Source: Candidatus Bathyarchaeota archaeon
GTDB lineage: Archaea > Thermoproteota > Bathyarchaeia > Bathyarchaeales > Bathycorpusculaceae
DNA length: 64,000 nucleotides
Assembly: GCA_963782525.1 (NCBI GenBank)
Contig: CAWAKC010000003.1
Span: forward strand, 128,001-192,000
Direction of reading: 5' to 3'
Position numbers and translations under genes: made by a program. The notes beneath the pieces are model-generated. The model ran no database searches. It was not told the origin of the DNA and worked only from the letters and a program-made list of their open reading frames with translations. Shown piece after piece: positions 20,173-29,750 of the stretch (positions are counted from its first letter, which is position 1; every line of letters begins with the position of its first letter).

Positions 20173-20486
20173 GGGCTGGCGAGTTGGTGTGTGGCTTTCG
20201 GGTCCCAAATGGGATCTGAGGAAACTCCGCCCACATGTAGAATTGCAGTCCCGTCGTTGGGACAACGCGAGAGCGTTGGCAACGGAGCAGAAACGAAACG
20301 TCCACCCAGACTTGGCGATGACACATTTGTGATGTCGAGTGTGCTGGATTGGAAACGGTGAAACGGCTGTCCTGCAAGTGGAAAGGGCAAACAGTCGCCG
20401 ATGAAGTATCTACCGGAAGGCGCGGGTAGCCCGATTAGCAGAATGCCACGATAACAGAAGGCGGGTTACTGCCAACACACCAGTCT
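20173..20486 (+). ncRNA. rnpB: RNase P RNA
   Basis: CR-I GAGGAAACUCCGCCC (20218) pairs with CR-V AACAGAAGGCGGGUUA (P4); GCAGAAAC and GUGAAACGG conserved regions; P2 UGUGGC/GCCACG; P1 closes the ends. Confidence 0.93.
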
Positions 20487-20545
20487 ATTTTACTAATACA
20501 CCAGCTTTTTGTCTACTCATTACGTTTTTTCGCCTTCCTAAATAG

Positions 20546-21846
20546 CAAAGCATCCCTGAAGCCTTCAAATCAGCCTATGAGCTCCTTGTTGCAGACCGAG
20601 GAGGCTTTGTCTACGAACCAAAAGTTGGCATACACAACAACACTGGCGAAGTTGATTCTTCATCGATGTATCCAAGCTTGATGGTTAACAACAACATCTC
20701 AGCCGAAACAGTTCTTTGCAAATGCTGCCCAGACTCGCACTTGCGAATCCCAGAGTTAAACTACAACATTTGTGAGAAACGGGTTGGGGTAGTTCCTAAA
20801 GCTTTGAAGCTGTTGTCTCTAAACGGTTGCACTACAAGAGGCTAAGAGATGAAACCGTGGACCCTAAACTTAAGGAGATGTACGATAACAGACAGAATGC
20901 TTTGAAGTGGATTTTAGTCACTTGCTTTGGGTATTTTGGCTACAGGAATGCAAAGTTCGGGACGGTGGATGGCCATATTGGTGTTTGTGCGTTTGGTAGG
21001 GATGCGTTTCTCAGGGCTGCTCGGATTTCTGAGAGTCGAGGCTTTGAAGTGCTCCACGGAATAGTGGATTCACTTTGGTTAAAAAAGGAAAACACAAATC
21101 TCGAAGAATACAAGGACCTCTGCAAACAAGTAAGCGACGACATCGGGGTTCCACTGAATTTTGAGGGACGTTACAAATTAATTGTTTTCTTGCCGTCGAA
21201 AATGCACCCAAATATTGGTGTTTTAAACCGCTACTATGGAGTTATGGAGAATGGAAAACTAAAGGTTAGAGGCTTAGAGGTACGTAAACATGACACACCC
21301 AAATTCGTCTACGATGCGCAGATGGAAATGATAAACGTGTTTTCCACGGCTAACAATTCGAAAGATTTTATGCAAAAGATTCCCGAAGCCCTTAAAGTGG
21401 TGAAAGCTTACCGGCAGAAATTACTCGACGGTGAGGTGCCTATTGGAGATTTGATTATTTCTAAGCATCTATCGAAAAACCCCAAGCACTACAAGCAACA
21501 TGTCAGTCAGGTTATCGCTGCAGAGCAACTGATTAAGGAAGGTTCAGAAGTTCATGCAGGCAGCAATGTACATTTCGTTTTTACTGACTCAAACAATAAG
21601 CGCTTTGAAAGACGAGTTAAGGCAGAACAACTCTTAGACAAGGGAGTTAACCCCGATGAACGGAAATACTTGCAACTTCTATATGAGTCAGCGGCGGGTT
21701 TGTTAAGCTTCTCCAATTATACATCTAAGATTGTTCAAAACGCAATCAGGGGATATGAGAGCAAAATCTTTTCGATTATCTTGGTGGCGCATAGTTATTA
21801 TTCGGTTGGGGACTGCGCCTTTATTCCAACTGTCCTAGAAACATGA
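20546..21846 (+). pseudogene. Family B DNA polymerase (PolB2-like), 5'-truncated and frameshifted
   Basis: DRGGFVYEP, EVDSSSMYPS, frameshift near 20812, KWILVTCFGY, HGIVDS in place of YGDTDS; exonuclease region missing. Confidence 0.85.
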
Positions 21847-21905
21847 AAAAACCCATTTCAGCTTCCATACATAATTATAAATACAACATAAGAAAAAAAG
21901 GGACA

Positions 21906-21925
21906 TGACAATTTATAAATTGTCA
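21906..21925. promoter_or_regulatory. Perfect 20-bp palindrome centred on a TATA box
   Basis: TGACAATTTATAAATTGTCA, 24 bp upstream of the ATG at 21950. Confidence 0.6.
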
Positions 21926-21949
21926 CACATAAACGGAAGGAAAGAAAAA

Positions 21950-28213: not shown

Positions 28214-28285
28214 TTTCAGCCGTCGTAGAAAAAGAGGACTTGGGATTCGAAGAAAAGTTAATGTGTGGGACAGCTTGCATGATAT

Positions 28286-28753
28286 TTGTGTGATATTTTG
28301 ACTAATAATGTACTCGAAGCAGTCCACAAAGTAGAGCTTGAAAAATATTTAGGCAAATGGTATGAGATTGCACATCTTCCCGCTAAATTCCAAGAAGGTT
28401 GCAATGAAACGACAGCAACTTACACTTTATTAGATAATGGCGTTATTTCTGTTCTGAACGAGTGCAAAAAGAACGGCAAAATGAAACTGGCAAAGGGAAA
28501 AGCAAAAGTTGTTGACAAAACGACTAATGCGAAACTCAAAGTGACATTTTTCTGGCCGTTTTATGGTGACTATTGGATAATAAAATTAGGGGATGACTAC
28601 AGTTATGCCGTTGTTGGTACACCAAACCGTAAGTATCTTTGGATATTGAGCAGAACACGTCAAATGGATGATAAGCTTTTTTCAGAATTAGTAGATTTCG
28701 TAAAGTCAAAAGGCTTCAACGTCGAAAACCTAATAAAAACTGTTCACAGTTAA
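28286..28753 (+). CDS. Lipocalin (Blc-like)
   Basis: YLGKWYEIA, LKVTFFWPFYGDYWI, YLWILSR; no lipoprotein signal visible. Confidence 0.9.
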   Translation: MCDILTNNVLEAVHKVELEKYLGKWYEIAHLPAKFQEGCNETTATYTLLDNGVISVLNECKKNGKMKLAKGKAKVVDKTTNAKLKVTFFWPFYGDYWIIKLGDDYSYAVVGTPNRKYLWILSRTRQMDDKLFSELVDFVKSKGFNVENLIKTVHS

Positions 28754-29030
28754 CCAGCCAAAGATTGACCTAAGAAACTGGCGATGAGAAAGACACATCA
28801 GTAGGGTATATATCCCTAAAGGGTACCTCCTCGCAAACAGGGACTCTGTCTTTCAATAAGCAGATATTTAAGATAAAATTTGTTATCAGGCATAAAATGG
28901 TTATGGCTTGAAAATTACTAGAAGTGATAGCTTGGTCGATTCGGGAGACATAAGTTAAGACTCGAGCTAAAGAGAATTATTGGTGCTTCTGAAAAAGATG
29001 TTCAGGGCAAATATTTGTCCCTAGAAGTAA

Positions 29031-29459
29031 TTATGAAAGATTGAAATCAGAGCGACCAAGAGCTGCAAGTACTTGTTCAGTTACAGTTTTTTTTCCGAGA
29101 TGTCGAACAATATCGGCGCCGACAATTATTCCAGTTATTTTATTCTGCTCCAAAACGGGCAGTCGTCTAACCTTATTACTTGCCATCAAGGAAGCTGCCT
29201 CTTTAATTAAAGCATCAGAATTGACGGTAATAACAGGGTTAGACATTACTTCTGAGACTTTAGTGTCCAAGGGTAGTTTTTCCGCAACAACCCTTCTGAC
29301 GAAATCTCTTTCTGTAACTATTCCAGCAAGCTTTTCGCCTTCAATAACTACCACGCAACCTATATGATGGGAAGTCATAAGCTGTGCTGCTTCAAAAATG
29401 CTATGATCTACACTGATGGAAACGACGTGCCATGTCATAATATCTTTTACCGTTGACAT
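29031..29459 (-). CDS. CBS domain protein
   Basis: Two CBS repeats with GIVTERD and VRRLPV. Confidence 0.9.
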   Translation of the reverse strand: MSTVKDIMTWHVVSISVDHSIFEAAQLMTSHHIGCVVVIEGEKLAGIVTERDFVRRVVAEKLPLDTKVSEVMSNPVITVNSDALIKEAASLMASNKVRRLPVLEQNKITGIIVGADIVRHLGKKTVTEQVLAALGRSDFNLS

Positions 29460-29642
29460 AATATTATTTTGGTAAAGTGACTTAAATAAGTTTTCAAAAT
29501 TAAATTTTATGTCATCATTTAAATAAATTTCATTATGTCATTAAATAATTAACGAAATAAATTTGGAAACTGGAATAACAAACAGAATGAAGATTATGAC
29601 TATCCGAGTCTGTGTATCTGTTTCTTGTAAAAGTTATTCGCC

Positions 29643-29750
29643 TAAAAGCTTATAACTAGAAAGCAACTATGAGAAAGCAGGGATCAAAATGAGTGAGGAT
29701 AGTGAAAAATTACTAAGTCCAAAGGCGAGTTATTCCATACTCCTCAGCCT
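29643..29750 (+). repeat. Element end: promoter, int(N) start and degenerate att core (copy 3)
   Basis: TAAAAGCTTATAACTAGA, AGGGA, ATG at 29689 giving MSEDSEKLLSPKASY. Confidence 0.7.

What the first reader, a model, noticed from the sequence alone, without database searches (positions are those of the whole stretch)
20458..29750. Tandem integrative elements that target the RNase P RNA gene
Seen: the 26 nt covering part of CR-V and the P1 3' strand of rnpB (20458-20483) recur exactly at 27178-27203 and degenerately at 29722-29749. Both downstream copies are preceded by the same ~85-bp arm (TAAAAGCTTATAACTAGA...AGGGA...AAAAATTACTAAG.CC). The DNA between cores is accessory cargo and pseudogenes. 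Established: tyrosine-integrase islands duplicate the 3' end of the target gene, usually a tRNA or tmRNA, and can stack in tandem. Inference: at least two successive elements of one family used the conserved end of RNase P RNA as attB, a target I do not recognise as described for archaea.
Basis: partly seen in the sequence, partly recalled or inferred. Interest (0 to 1): 0.9.

Follow-up and report, generated by a model that had tools for sequence, protein, structure and literature searches.

The report
Mobile elements targeting RNase P gene

Summary
rnpB lies at 20179-20480 (Rfam, 180 bits). Its last 26 nt recur exactly at 27178-27203 and degenerately (18 of 26) at 29722-29749. Both later copies follow a conserved ~85-bp arm.

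In 120 genomes of the genus, 105 carry the core and 63 carry two or more copies; a reversed-pattern control matched none. In at least 28 genomes a tyrosine-integrase gene or remnant lies directly beside a core, 16 of them with open frames of 300 aa or more.

The window holds only wrecks:
- an element whose convergent integrase is reduced to a scrap and which is interrupted by a 4.3-kb block (PolB pseudogene and a surface protein);
- a second element with a truncated integrase;
- a third remnant and two IS copies.

The same interval varies from 3 to 21 kb in four genomes.

New here: several integrase arrangements share this site. In one type the att core lies inside the integrase reading frame, as in SSV viruses, although the protein is Xer-like. 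These elements carry a probable HUH Rep. No circular form or empty site was seen.

The parts
20179..20483 (+). RNase P RNA gene (rnpB), full length
   Evidence: Rfam RF00373, 180 bits, model 1-288
20458..20483 (+). att core copy 1: the last 26 nt of rnpB
   Evidence: Identical to 27178-27203. The same core pattern occurs in 105 of 120 genus genomes.
20484..20547 (+). 'F' stub: the first 64 nt of the left end of an element whose integrase converges on rnpB (type C)
   Evidence: Window 20172-20547 is 92.3% identical to G107 L109 208-578. In G014, G015, G097 and G107 this sequence runs on into the 3' end of a minus-strand integrase.
20547..21846 (+). Family B DNA polymerase pseudogene; the N-terminal part is missing and the frame is broken before 20827
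   Evidence: PF00136 6.1e-21 for ORF 20827-21846; NF004416 8.5e-58; 80.8% identical to the full 766-aa gene of G010; stops seen
21905..24643 (+). 912-aa surface-type protein (beta-propeller and Ig-like). Together with the PolB stub it forms the 20548-24877 block that interrupts element 1.
   Evidence: PQQ_2 7.7e-7. Window 21108-24877 is 97.7% identical to G010 in a different context.
24884..24985 (-). C-terminal scrap of the type C integrase of element 1
   Evidence: tblastx to G107 L109 679-780, 64.7% over 34 aa. Weak PF00589 hit at window 24896-24961, E 0.0045. Window 24857-24985 is 85% identical to the G003 integrase fragment.
25102..25605 (+). 167-aa ORF of unknown function
   Evidence: Only a sub-threshold HNHc_6 hit, E 0.006; no NCBIfam or PHROG hit
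25993..26289 (+). PRC-barrel-like 98-aa gene, a hallmark near the right end of these elements
   Evidence: Homologues in 5 of 26 element intervals compared, in the same position before the arm; 80-85% identical DNA in several loci; weak PF05239 hit; phrog_37641
26551..26961 (+). 136-aa membrane protein (FxLYD-like)
   Evidence: 90% identical to the protein at the same place in G107; weak NF038353 hit
27095..27177 (+). Arm 1: right end (P arm) of element 1. It has a TATA-like box, a GGGA motif and a GTG/ATG that reads into the core.
   Evidence: Repeat families D1 and D4. 78-87% identical arms precede cores in G003, G023, G013 and contig C6 of the same genome.
27178..27203 (+). att core copy 2: junction of element 1 and element 2
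   Evidence: Exact copy of 20458-20483
27204..27752 (+). Left end of element 2: remnant of the integrase 5' region (27214-27434, with a TAA), fused by deletion to a winged-helix ORF (27285-27752)
   Evidence: tblastn with type B integrases, best 88% over 34 aa to G106. ORF residues 23-50 match the G106 integrase and residues 52-116 match a G106 gene 4 kb further on. HxlR 8.7e-5.
28286..28753 (+). Lipocalin (Blc-like) cargo gene
   Evidence: PF08212 3.1e-48; homologues in 4 of 26 element intervals
29031..29459 (-). CBS-pair protein, cargo
   Evidence: PF00571 2e-29
29643..29721 (+). Arm 2: right end of element 2
   Evidence: D1 and D4
29722..29749 (+). att core copy 3, degenerate (18 of 26)
   Evidence: Window 29701-30785 is shared with G010 at 92.9%, so this copy predates the split of the two genomes.
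29750..30785 (.). Third remnant, with a methyltransferase gene at 29890-30474 (-)
   Evidence: Methyltransf_25 2.7e-6. Present in G010 but not aligned in G023. Window 30699-30874 recurs after cores in G010 and G106.
30786..33105 (-). Two tandem IS copies (DDE transposases at 31051-31902 and 32084-32935), present only in the window
   Evidence: DDE_Tnp_1 7.4e-19. A direct repeat of 300 nt at 99% with a spacing of 1033 nt. In G010, window 30785 and 33106 are adjacent.
33106..34257 (+). Start of the flank shared with G010 and G023; it includes the 142-aa gene at 33819-34247 used as the right-hand marker
   Evidence: 82-89% identity

Best explanation
[quoted passage not shown] Each integration keeps rnpB whole, because the element carries its own copy of the core. 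It leaves a second core, preceded by the element's ~85-bp arm, at the far end. Repeated integration at the regenerated site stacks elements head to tail. The window shows the end state of this process. Downstream of an intact rnpB lie three decayed elements: E1 at 20484-27203, E2 at 27204-29749 and E3 from 29750. A 4.3-kb block has been inserted into E1, and two IS copies lie in E3. No integrase in the window is still functional, so these copies are fixed fossils. Shown: the repeats, the arms, the variable content between relatives, and integrase genes at the cores in relatives. Inferred: that those integrases catalysed the insertions. In relatives the integrases come in several arrangements. 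Type A is co-oriented with rnpB and its reading frame runs through the core. Type B is co-oriented; some members have their own ribosome-binding site and ATG about 113 nt after the core. Type C is convergent, with its stop codon about 60-100 nt after the core. For type A the att core lies inside the integrase gene, so integration separates the body of the gene from its promoter and start codon in the arm. That would explain why so many copies are stranded and decay.
For: - Repeats: the core repeat is exact and not expected by chance.
- Genus-wide recurrence: 63 of 120 genomes hold two or more cores and 105 of 120 hold at least one (my hand count from the table). The reversed-pattern control matched 0 of 120.
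- Integrases at the cores: PF00589 hits start right after the core in G003, G010 and G013. Type B integrases or remnants were found in 21 of 120 genomes, nearly all at a listed core. Convergent integrases abut the core in G072, G076, G053 and G015. In total at least 28 of 120 genomes have one, 16 of them with open frames of 300 aa or more.
- Arms: the same arm precedes distal cores in many genomes.
- Binding-site-like repeats: type B1 elements carry two extra direct copies of the 3' half of the core between the core and the integrase start.
- Island size between fixed markers: 3.0, 4.3, 13.3 and 21.3 kb in four genomes.
- Metagenome contigs: a contig of run X1 follows the window from 19096 to the last base of the core, 20483, and then differs.
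- Type A frame: the residues ILNVLI before the first Met differ by synonymous changes in 4 sequences, and 3 of the 4 have no in-frame start between the core and that stretch. In 38 database homologues called with an upstream extension the 'Met' position is M in 36 and L in 2. At the right ends of 4 of 4 type A elements an ATG lies in frame 10-19 codons before the core.
- Enzyme identity: the integrases match PF00589 at 6e-17, and K, R, H and Y are invariant in the alignment.
Against: - No intact integrase is in the window, and no Rep was found in the window's genome with the profile.
- I saw no excised circle and no clean empty site. The original chromosomal flank of rnpB could not be identified, because every genome I examined has something inserted there.
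- The left junction of E1 is not a simple core-integrase junction; it needs a secondary 4.3-kb insertion and deletions.
- For type B2 the linker between core and integrase changes mostly at first codon positions (6 first, 1 second, 3 third), and two copies share a TAA. The 'split gene' reading is therefore not supported for that type.
- 51 of the 120 best database homologues of the type A integrase are called from the conserved Met, so a start there is not excluded.
- The genomes are related species, so the counts are not independent events, and some extra cores may be assembly duplicates (for example G023 C4/C13).
- Only the listed rows could be cross-checked: about 150 of 406 matches, and all but 79 matches.
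Confidence: 0.85

Rival explanations
1. The repeats are target-site duplications of casposons or other self-synthesising transposons. The PolB fragment would be the remnant of the element's polymerase.
For: A family B polymerase pseudogene starts 64 nt after rnpB. Casposons stack in tandem at RNA-gene ends in Methanosarcina (PMC4779613, passages). A Cas1 pseudogene exists elsewhere in the same genome, next to a PRC-barrel gene and a truncated arm.
Against: No Cas1 lies in or near the island; the only Cas1 hit in 5 genomes is at G000:C3:270900, about 79 kb beyond the window. No terminal inverted repeats bound the units. The arm is a direct repeat, not an inverted one. The PolB fragment belongs to a 4.3-kb block that occurs in another context in G010, and it matches cellular-type archaeal PolB models. 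Tyrosine integrases sit at the cores in relatives.
Confidence: 0.02
2. The arm-core units are host features, such as a small gene or regulatory RNA that copies the rnpB 3' end. They would have multiplied by ordinary segmental duplication, and the integrases nearby would be unrelated passengers of a generally unstable region.
For: The arm has a promoter-like box, a start codon and a short open frame (28-43 codons at distal sites). Arms are better conserved (78-87%) than the integrases (about 22-30% identity between types). The region is full of other mobile DNA.
Against: Integrase genes begin at, or end within about 100 nt of, the core in at least 28 genomes, in fixed orientation classes. The units bound gene sets that differ between close relatives. 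The number of units ranges from 0 to 7 per genome. Type B1 elements carry further half-core repeats typical of recombinase binding sites.
Confidence: 0.05
3. The elements are real integrase elements, but the window's array was not built at this rnpB. It would have been brought in as a block, by homologous recombination with DNA of a relative or by rearrangement, so the window says nothing about local integration events.
For: Window 29701-30785 and the 21108-24877 block are shared with G010 at 93-98% but in different arrangements. Extra cores lie on other contigs in several genomes, including C6 of the window's own genome.
Against: All three cores are co-oriented directly downstream of rnpB, as in the arrays of G003, G047, G069, G077 and G079. 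This reading changes the history, not the mechanism.
Confidence: 0.08

Closest known systems
Genomic islands and proviruses that integrate into the 3' end of tRNA or tmRNA genes by tyrosine integrases (Islander-type islands; archaeal examples reviewed in PMC8371274, one passage seen)
   Same: A direct repeat equal to the 3' end of a structural RNA gene. The gene is regenerated by the element's copy. The integrase lies next to one junction. Elements stack in tandem, and occupancy varies among relatives.
   Different: The target is the RNase P RNA gene. 'RNase P' and 'rnpB' do not occur in the main text of that review, of the Thaumarchaeota iMGE paper or of the provirus border-mapping paper.
SSV-type ('suicidal') integrases of Sulfolobales and Thermococcales, whose attP lies inside the integrase gene (PMC7253208; only the abstract start in the search listings was seen)
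   Same: For type A elements the att core lies inside the integrase reading frame. Integration parts the gene, and many stranded, decaying copies are found.
   Different: By sequence the protein is Xer-like. The best solved relative is Pyrococcus XerA (4a8e, 2.7e-9) and the best NCBIfam model is XerA_Arch, below its cut-off. No SSV integrase chain was among the 8 PDB hits. The split removes only about 20-45 N-terminal residues. The hosts appear to be mesophilic sediment or soil archaea. Types B1 and C at the same site are not split.
Phage phiEf11 integration into ffs, the 4.5S/SRP RNA gene of Enterococcus (PMC12540744, passages)
   Same: A tyrosine-integrase element uses a non-tRNA structural RNA gene as attB, with a 27-nt identity segment.
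   Different: A bacterial phage and a different RNA. That paper lists tRNA/tmRNA and csRNA as the known RNA targets and does not report RNase P RNA as a target.
Tandem casposons and tyrosine-recombinase elements sharing one tRNA-Leu site in Methanosarcina (PMC4779613, passages)
   Same: Several unrelated or distantly related element types reuse one RNA-gene end. Tandem arrays form, and one copy is often inactivated.
   Different: No Cas1 and no inverted terminal repeats here, and a different target gene.

Membership tests
Tyrosine recombinase / phage integrase (PF00589) | Catalytic domain matching PF00589 above the gathering score | tested here: met
   Met for the relatives' core-adjacent proteins: G003 type A 6e-17, 62.4 bits against a cut-off of 27.1; genome hits above the cut-off at the cores of G003, G010 and G013. 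In the window itself there are only a 5' remnant without the catalytic domain and a scrap with E 0.0045.
Tyrosine recombinase / phage integrase (PF00589) | Conserved catalytic residues (R, K, H-x-x-R, H/W, Y) | tested here: met
   In the alignment of 5 proteins (A3), K158, R234, H257 and Y266 are invariant. The first Arg (TGLRP) is present in 4 of 5; it is missing in the window's upstream 394-aa integrase.
RNA-gene-targeting integrative islands (tRNA/tmRNA type) | The island is flanked by a direct repeat that equals the 3' end of the RNA gene, with the intact gene at one end | tested here: met
RNA-gene-targeting integrative islands (tRNA/tmRNA type) | Sporadic occupancy: related genomes with different content or an empty site | tested here: inconclusive
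   Different content and size are shown, but no clean empty site was found among the loci examined.
RNA-gene-targeting integrative islands (tRNA/tmRNA type) | The target is a tRNA or tmRNA gene | tested here: not met
   The target is rnpB. No tRNA or tmRNA gene is in the window.
SSV-type integrases | attP lies inside the integrase ORF, so integration splits the gene | tested here: inconclusive
   Supported for type A by the synonymous-change pattern, the lack of start codons, and in-frame ATGs in the arms of 4 of 4 elements. Not supported for type B2. Not the case for B1 and C. No contiguous episomal gene was seen.
SSV-type integrases | Sequence relationship to the SSV1 integrase | tested here: inconclusive
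   phmmer against PDB chains gave 8 hits, led by XerA; none was named as an SSV integrase. That SSV1 integrase structures are in the PDB is my recollection.
Casposons | Cas1 casposase, terminal inverted repeats and a target-site duplication | tested here: not met
   No Cas1 near rnpB in 5 genomes. No inverted repeats at the unit ends.
HUH rolling-circle Rep (for the 380-aa ORF of type A elements in relatives) | Motifs HUH and catalytic Tyr on the HUH fold | tested here: inconclusive
   PHxHxxGF and WYQLxH are invariant in 19 sequences. The AF2 model has pLDDT 72. Foldseek gave nothing at E<=0.001. The VIA-align top rows are HUH nucleases but weak: SIRV1 ORF119 Z 5.2, rmsd 4.5, 108 aligned; Vientovirus Rep Z 5.0; RepB Z 4.4. 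No Pfam or PHROG hit.

The most novel reading that the evidence does not exclude
The integrase genes of these elements are built around the rnpB core in both states. In the circle, the arm supplies the promoter, the start codon and the first ~12-19 codons. In the chromosome, the same frame stays open into rnpB, where a conserved ATG (in ...GAATGCC...) lies in frame in many genomes. Of the 120 best database homologues, 9 are called through the core in one frame and 9 in a second frame, all from start codons inside rnpB. If read-through from the strong rnpB promoter yields a chimeric integrase whose N-terminus is encoded by the ribozyme gene, the element would tie its excision enzyme to an essential, constitutively transcribed RNA gene. 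That would be a structural RNA gene doubling as a coding exon for a parasite.
Probability: 0.15. Interest if true: 0.85.

Novelty: new variant of a known kind. Interest (0 to 1): 0.68.

Why it matters
Site-specific integration into tRNA and tmRNA genes is textbook. [quoted passage not shown]

- **Scale.** This is not a single case. More than half of 120 species of one archaeal genus carry extra cores. A same-genus MAG and NCBI names of homologues label the genus Bathyarchaeota.
- **Mobilome.** It gives a first handle on the small integrative elements of a poorly known, uncultivated group: integrase plus a probable HUH Rep, 3-9 kb.
- **Recombinase evolution.** Co-oriented split, co-oriented unsplit and convergent integrase genes share one site, so gene architecture and directionality can be compared on a single target. 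Split-gene ('suicidal') integration may have arisen in Xer-like integrases outside the SSV family.
- **Annotation.** Integrase ORFs in public databases are called through rnpB, and rnpB is usually unannotated, so such islands would be filed as 'intergenic'.
- **Practical use.** The 26-nt site and its integrases are candidates for site-specific integration tools in archaea.

Tried and rejected
- **Casposon reading.** My first idea, prompted by the PolB fragment. Dropped. I did not test whether the 'IR2' site of M. mazei casposons (PMC4779613, 35-nt duplication) is near rnpB; that paper's supplement is closed.
- **'Native flank' reading of 20484-20547.** I first took the ~20-nt motif after the core in the window, G012 and G014 as the original flank. 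BLAST showed G012 and G014 similar for only ~20 nt. The longer 'F' sequence proved to be the 3' end of a convergent integrase. The Fer4 gene next to rnpB in G012 is elsewhere in other genomes.
- **Episomal forms.** Viral-contig scans with the type A integrase, an arm-core pattern and the Rep alignment found nothing.
- **My error.** The arm-core pattern had a 3-nt spacer where most copies have 4.
- **Sequencing runs.** Only Logan contigs of runs holding 0.21 or less of the sampled words were available. Laid on 19000-34500 they showed no circle junction and no empty site. The two 'skips' from 20449 to 27163/27177 in X5 are short contigs (side 28) that simply place the core on its second copy. 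No cover of a part is not evidence of absence.
- **Rep fold.** Foldseek against the PDB gave nothing at E<=0.001.
- **Type B2 split-gene test.** The codon-position pattern did not support coding of the linker.
- **Literature.** PMC3541175 and PMC5462765 mention rnpB only in their reference lists. The provirus border paper reports that 13.5% of RNA targets are 'ncRNA' without naming them in the text; its supplement, which may list RNase P RNA, is closed.
- **Not done.** No integrase tree was built, so 'one clade of rnpB-specific integrases' is not claimed.

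
Full report
**The observation.** Infernal places a complete archaeal RNase P RNA gene at 20179-20480 (+): 180 bits against a gathering score of 84, model positions 1-288. The window has no tRNA or tmRNA gene. The 26 nt at 20458-20483 recur without change at 27178-27203. A probe offset by two bases found exactly these two places, and none of 100 shuffles gave two matches. The third copy, at 29722-29749, keeps 18 of 26 positions (my count). Both distal copies are preceded by the same arm: 88% identity over 41 nt, and 80% over the 49 nt that run into the core.

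**The same thing across the genus.** The window is G000:C3:128001-192000 of a 2.87-Mb, 12-contig genome. A degenerate 25-nt core pattern with up to 2 mismatches was searched in 120 genomes of the genus.
- 105 genomes have at least one match and 63 have two or more, up to seven (my hand count from the table).
- The reversed pattern matched in none.
- In the arrays I fetched, the cores are co-oriented downstream of rnpB, and the distal ones usually carry the arm.
- The genomes are related species and some are fragmented, so these are occurrences, not independent events. A few duplicates may be assembly artefacts.

**Integrases at the cores.** PF00589 hits begin immediately after the core, on the rnpB strand, in G003, G010 and G013. 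Cross-reading, I found an integrase gene or remnant directly at a core in at least 28 of the 120 genomes, 16 of them with open frames of 300 aa or more. Only the listed rows could be checked. They fall into these arrangements:
- **Type A** (G003, G099, G069, G097). Co-oriented with rnpB, and the reading frame runs through the core.
- **Type B1** (G013, G095, G111, G049, G048, G098). Co-oriented, with a GGAGG site and ATG about 113 nt after the core. Two further direct copies of the 3' half of the core lie in between.
- **Type B2** (G068, G008, G058, G106, G118, G019). Co-oriented and in frame with the core.
- **Type C** (G072, G076, G053, G015; remnants in G014, G097, G107). Convergent, with the stop codon about 60-100 nt from the core.

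By all-against-all BLASTP, types A and C fall into one protein cluster and type B into another. The proteins are ordinary tyrosine recombinases (PF00589 6e-17; K, R, H and Y invariant). Their closest solved and curated relatives are archaeal XerA proteins.

**Anatomy of the window.** After core 1 come 64 nt (20484-20547) that are 87-92% identical to the left end of type C elements. There the homology breaks.

A 4.3-kb block follows (20548-24877). It holds the C-terminal two-thirds of a family B polymerase, broken by stops, and a 912-aa surface-type protein. From 21108 onward the block is 97.7% identical to G010, where it lies in another context.

At 24884-24985 (-) the type C integrase resumes as a C-terminal scrap. 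Next come an unknown ORF, the PRC-barrel gene and a 136-aa membrane protein, as at the right end of the G107 element (86% over 1.26 kb), then arm 1 and core 2. This is element 1.

Element 2 (27204-29749) starts with the 5' region of a type B integrase. It carries a TAA and is fused by deletion to a winged-helix ORF. It also carries a lipocalin and a CBS protein and ends with arm 2 and the degenerate core 3.

The DNA after core 3 (29750-30785, with a methyltransferase) is shared with G010 at 92.9% but is not aligned in G023. Two IS copies (30786-33105) are peculiar to the window. The flank common to G010 and G023 resumes at about 33106-33126.

**Not core synteny.**
- From the core to the 142-aa gene at 33819-34247, where that gene lies downstream in the same orientation, the distance is 2,982 nt in G094, 4,327 nt in G023, 13,336 nt in the window and 21,326 nt in G010.
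- In G014 and G096 the gene lies 41 and 87 nt after the last core but inverted. In other genomes it is far away or on another contig.
- A 3,295-nt contig of metagenome run X1 follows the window from 19096 to the last base of the core and then differs. Another contig starts at 21108, as in G010.
- I found no clean empty site. Every rnpB I looked at has an element end or a scar after the core.

**Is the integrase gene split?** For type A there are four lines of evidence.
- The six residues ILNVLI just upstream of the first Met differ among four sequences almost only by synonymous changes, including TTA/CTT.
- Three of the four sequences have no ATG, GTG or TTG in frame between the core and that stretch.
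- Among the 120 best database homologues, 38 are called with an upstream extension. The 'Met' position is M in 36 and L in 2.
- At the right ends of 4 of 4 type A elements an ATG lies in frame 10-19 codons before the core.

Together these indicate that translation starts on the far side of the core, so integration parts the gene, as in SSV-type integrases.

Against this, 51 of the 120 homologues are called from the Met, and no contiguous free form was seen. For type B2 the linker changes mainly at first codon positions and two copies share a TAA, so I do not extend the claim to that type. B1 and C are clearly not split.

One side observation: in 18 of the 120 homologues, gene callers ran the ORF through the core, in either of two frames, to start codons inside rnpB.

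**What the elements are.** Intervals between successive cores are 1.4-8.6 kb. Type A elements share a 320-380-aa ORF with no Pfam or PHROG match.
- Its 20 database homologues are unnamed.
- The alignment shows invariant EH, PHxH and WYQLxH motifs and two Cys clusters.
- The AlphaFold model has pLDDT 72. It finds HUH replication nucleases at the top of a wide structural search, but weakly: SIRV1 ORF119 Z 5.2, Vientovirus Rep Z 5.0, RepB Z 4.4. Foldseek found nothing significant.

I read it as a probable rolling-circle Rep. The family occurs in 48 of 120 genomes, often beside integrases at other sites and at rnpB in nine genomes. It was not found in the window's genome. Other recurrent genes are the PRC-barrel protein and a lipocalin.

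**Organism.** The one genome-contig hit, titled 'Candidatus Bathyarchaeota archaeon isolate bog_990', has the same core at the same position as G049:C25 of this genus. NCBI names two integrase homologues as Bathyarchaeota. The window also encodes proteins matching a PLP-dependent decarboxylase family and an ATP-grasp family; my reading of them as methanofuran-pathway enzymes (MfnA/MfnD) is from recall. I therefore take the host to be a Bathyarchaeia-type archaeon. This rests on labels, not on a phylogeny.

**Literature.** Seven full-text searches and term searches inside six papers found no report of rnpB as an attachment site.
- The archaeal tyrosine-recombinase review and the Thaumarchaeota iMGE study do not contain 'RNase P' or 'rnpB'.
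- A 2025 paper presenting ffs as a new RNA target lists only tRNA/tmRNA and csRNA as precedents.
- A 2026 survey reports unnamed 'ncRNA' targets. Its supplement is closed, so a bacterial precedent cannot be excluded.

**Limits.** There is no experiment, no free form, no empty site and no tree. My two large-collection scans were spoiled by a one-base error in the pattern.

Noticed in passing
window 9643-19054: A second mobile element lies upstream of rnpB. It has a D5-type primase-helicase (15299-17869; DUF5906, D5_N, Pox_D5; phrog_864 3e-74), directly followed by a 394-aa tyrosine integrase with an N-terminal zinc ribbon (17870-19054) that lacks the first catalytic Arg in my alignment. There is also an integrase fragment at 9643-10410 (-). 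The integrase is conserved at the same place in G003. The element abuts the 3' end of the AAA_18 kinase gene (19506-20087, -).
   Followed up: partly
G000:C6:101600-101708 (L039 10000-10109, minus strand): A third arm-plus-core copy in the window's own genome (78% identity to arm 1, core with 6 mismatches). It has a PRC-barrel gene 3.5 kb upstream, is away from rnpB, and has no integrase within the stretch I looked at. It may be a secondary site or a translocated piece.
   Followed up: no
G000:C3:270434-271463 (L042 8435-9464), about 79 kb beyond the window: A PRC-barrel gene is immediately followed by a truncated arm, a degenerate half core and then a Cas1 pseudogene (PF01867 2.6e-25, 5 stops). 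This is the only Cas1 hit in the five genomes searched.
   Followed up: partly
window 89-2089, 2408-4966, 21905-24643, 41660-44500: Four paralogous large proteins with BamB/PQQ-like beta-propeller and Ig-like parts, in regions of raised G+C (0.48-0.50 against about 0.40). One sits inside the island, and a 30%-identical one lies inside the G014 element.
   Followed up: no
window 40294-45499 and 34257-37083: Two further stretches are absent from G010 and G023 at the same place. One holds a double AsnC-type regulator, a 946-aa propeller protein and a molybdopterin oxidoreductase. The neighbourhood is variable well beyond the island.
   Followed up: no
proteins P0039, P0041, P0046, P0052, P0056-P0058, P0062, P0068, P0123 and others: Public gene calls for these integrases start inside the RNase P RNA gene, with N-termini such as MKNLPE... 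translated from rnpB. These are annotation artefacts or chimeric ORFs, and they hide both rnpB and the att site.
   Followed up: partly
L082-L087, about 20-110 nt after the core (e.g. L084): Type B1 elements carry two extra direct copies of the 12-13-nt 3' half of the core between the core and the integrase start. They look like recombinase binding sites.
   Followed up: no
G099 (C5, C6, C7), G098 (C1, C4, C7), G060 (C5, C8, C9): Some genomes carry 5-7 cores spread over three contigs, some with longer rnpB 3' fragments attached (L099, L101, L106). This suggests partial rnpB duplications or rearrangements between att sites.
   Followed up: no
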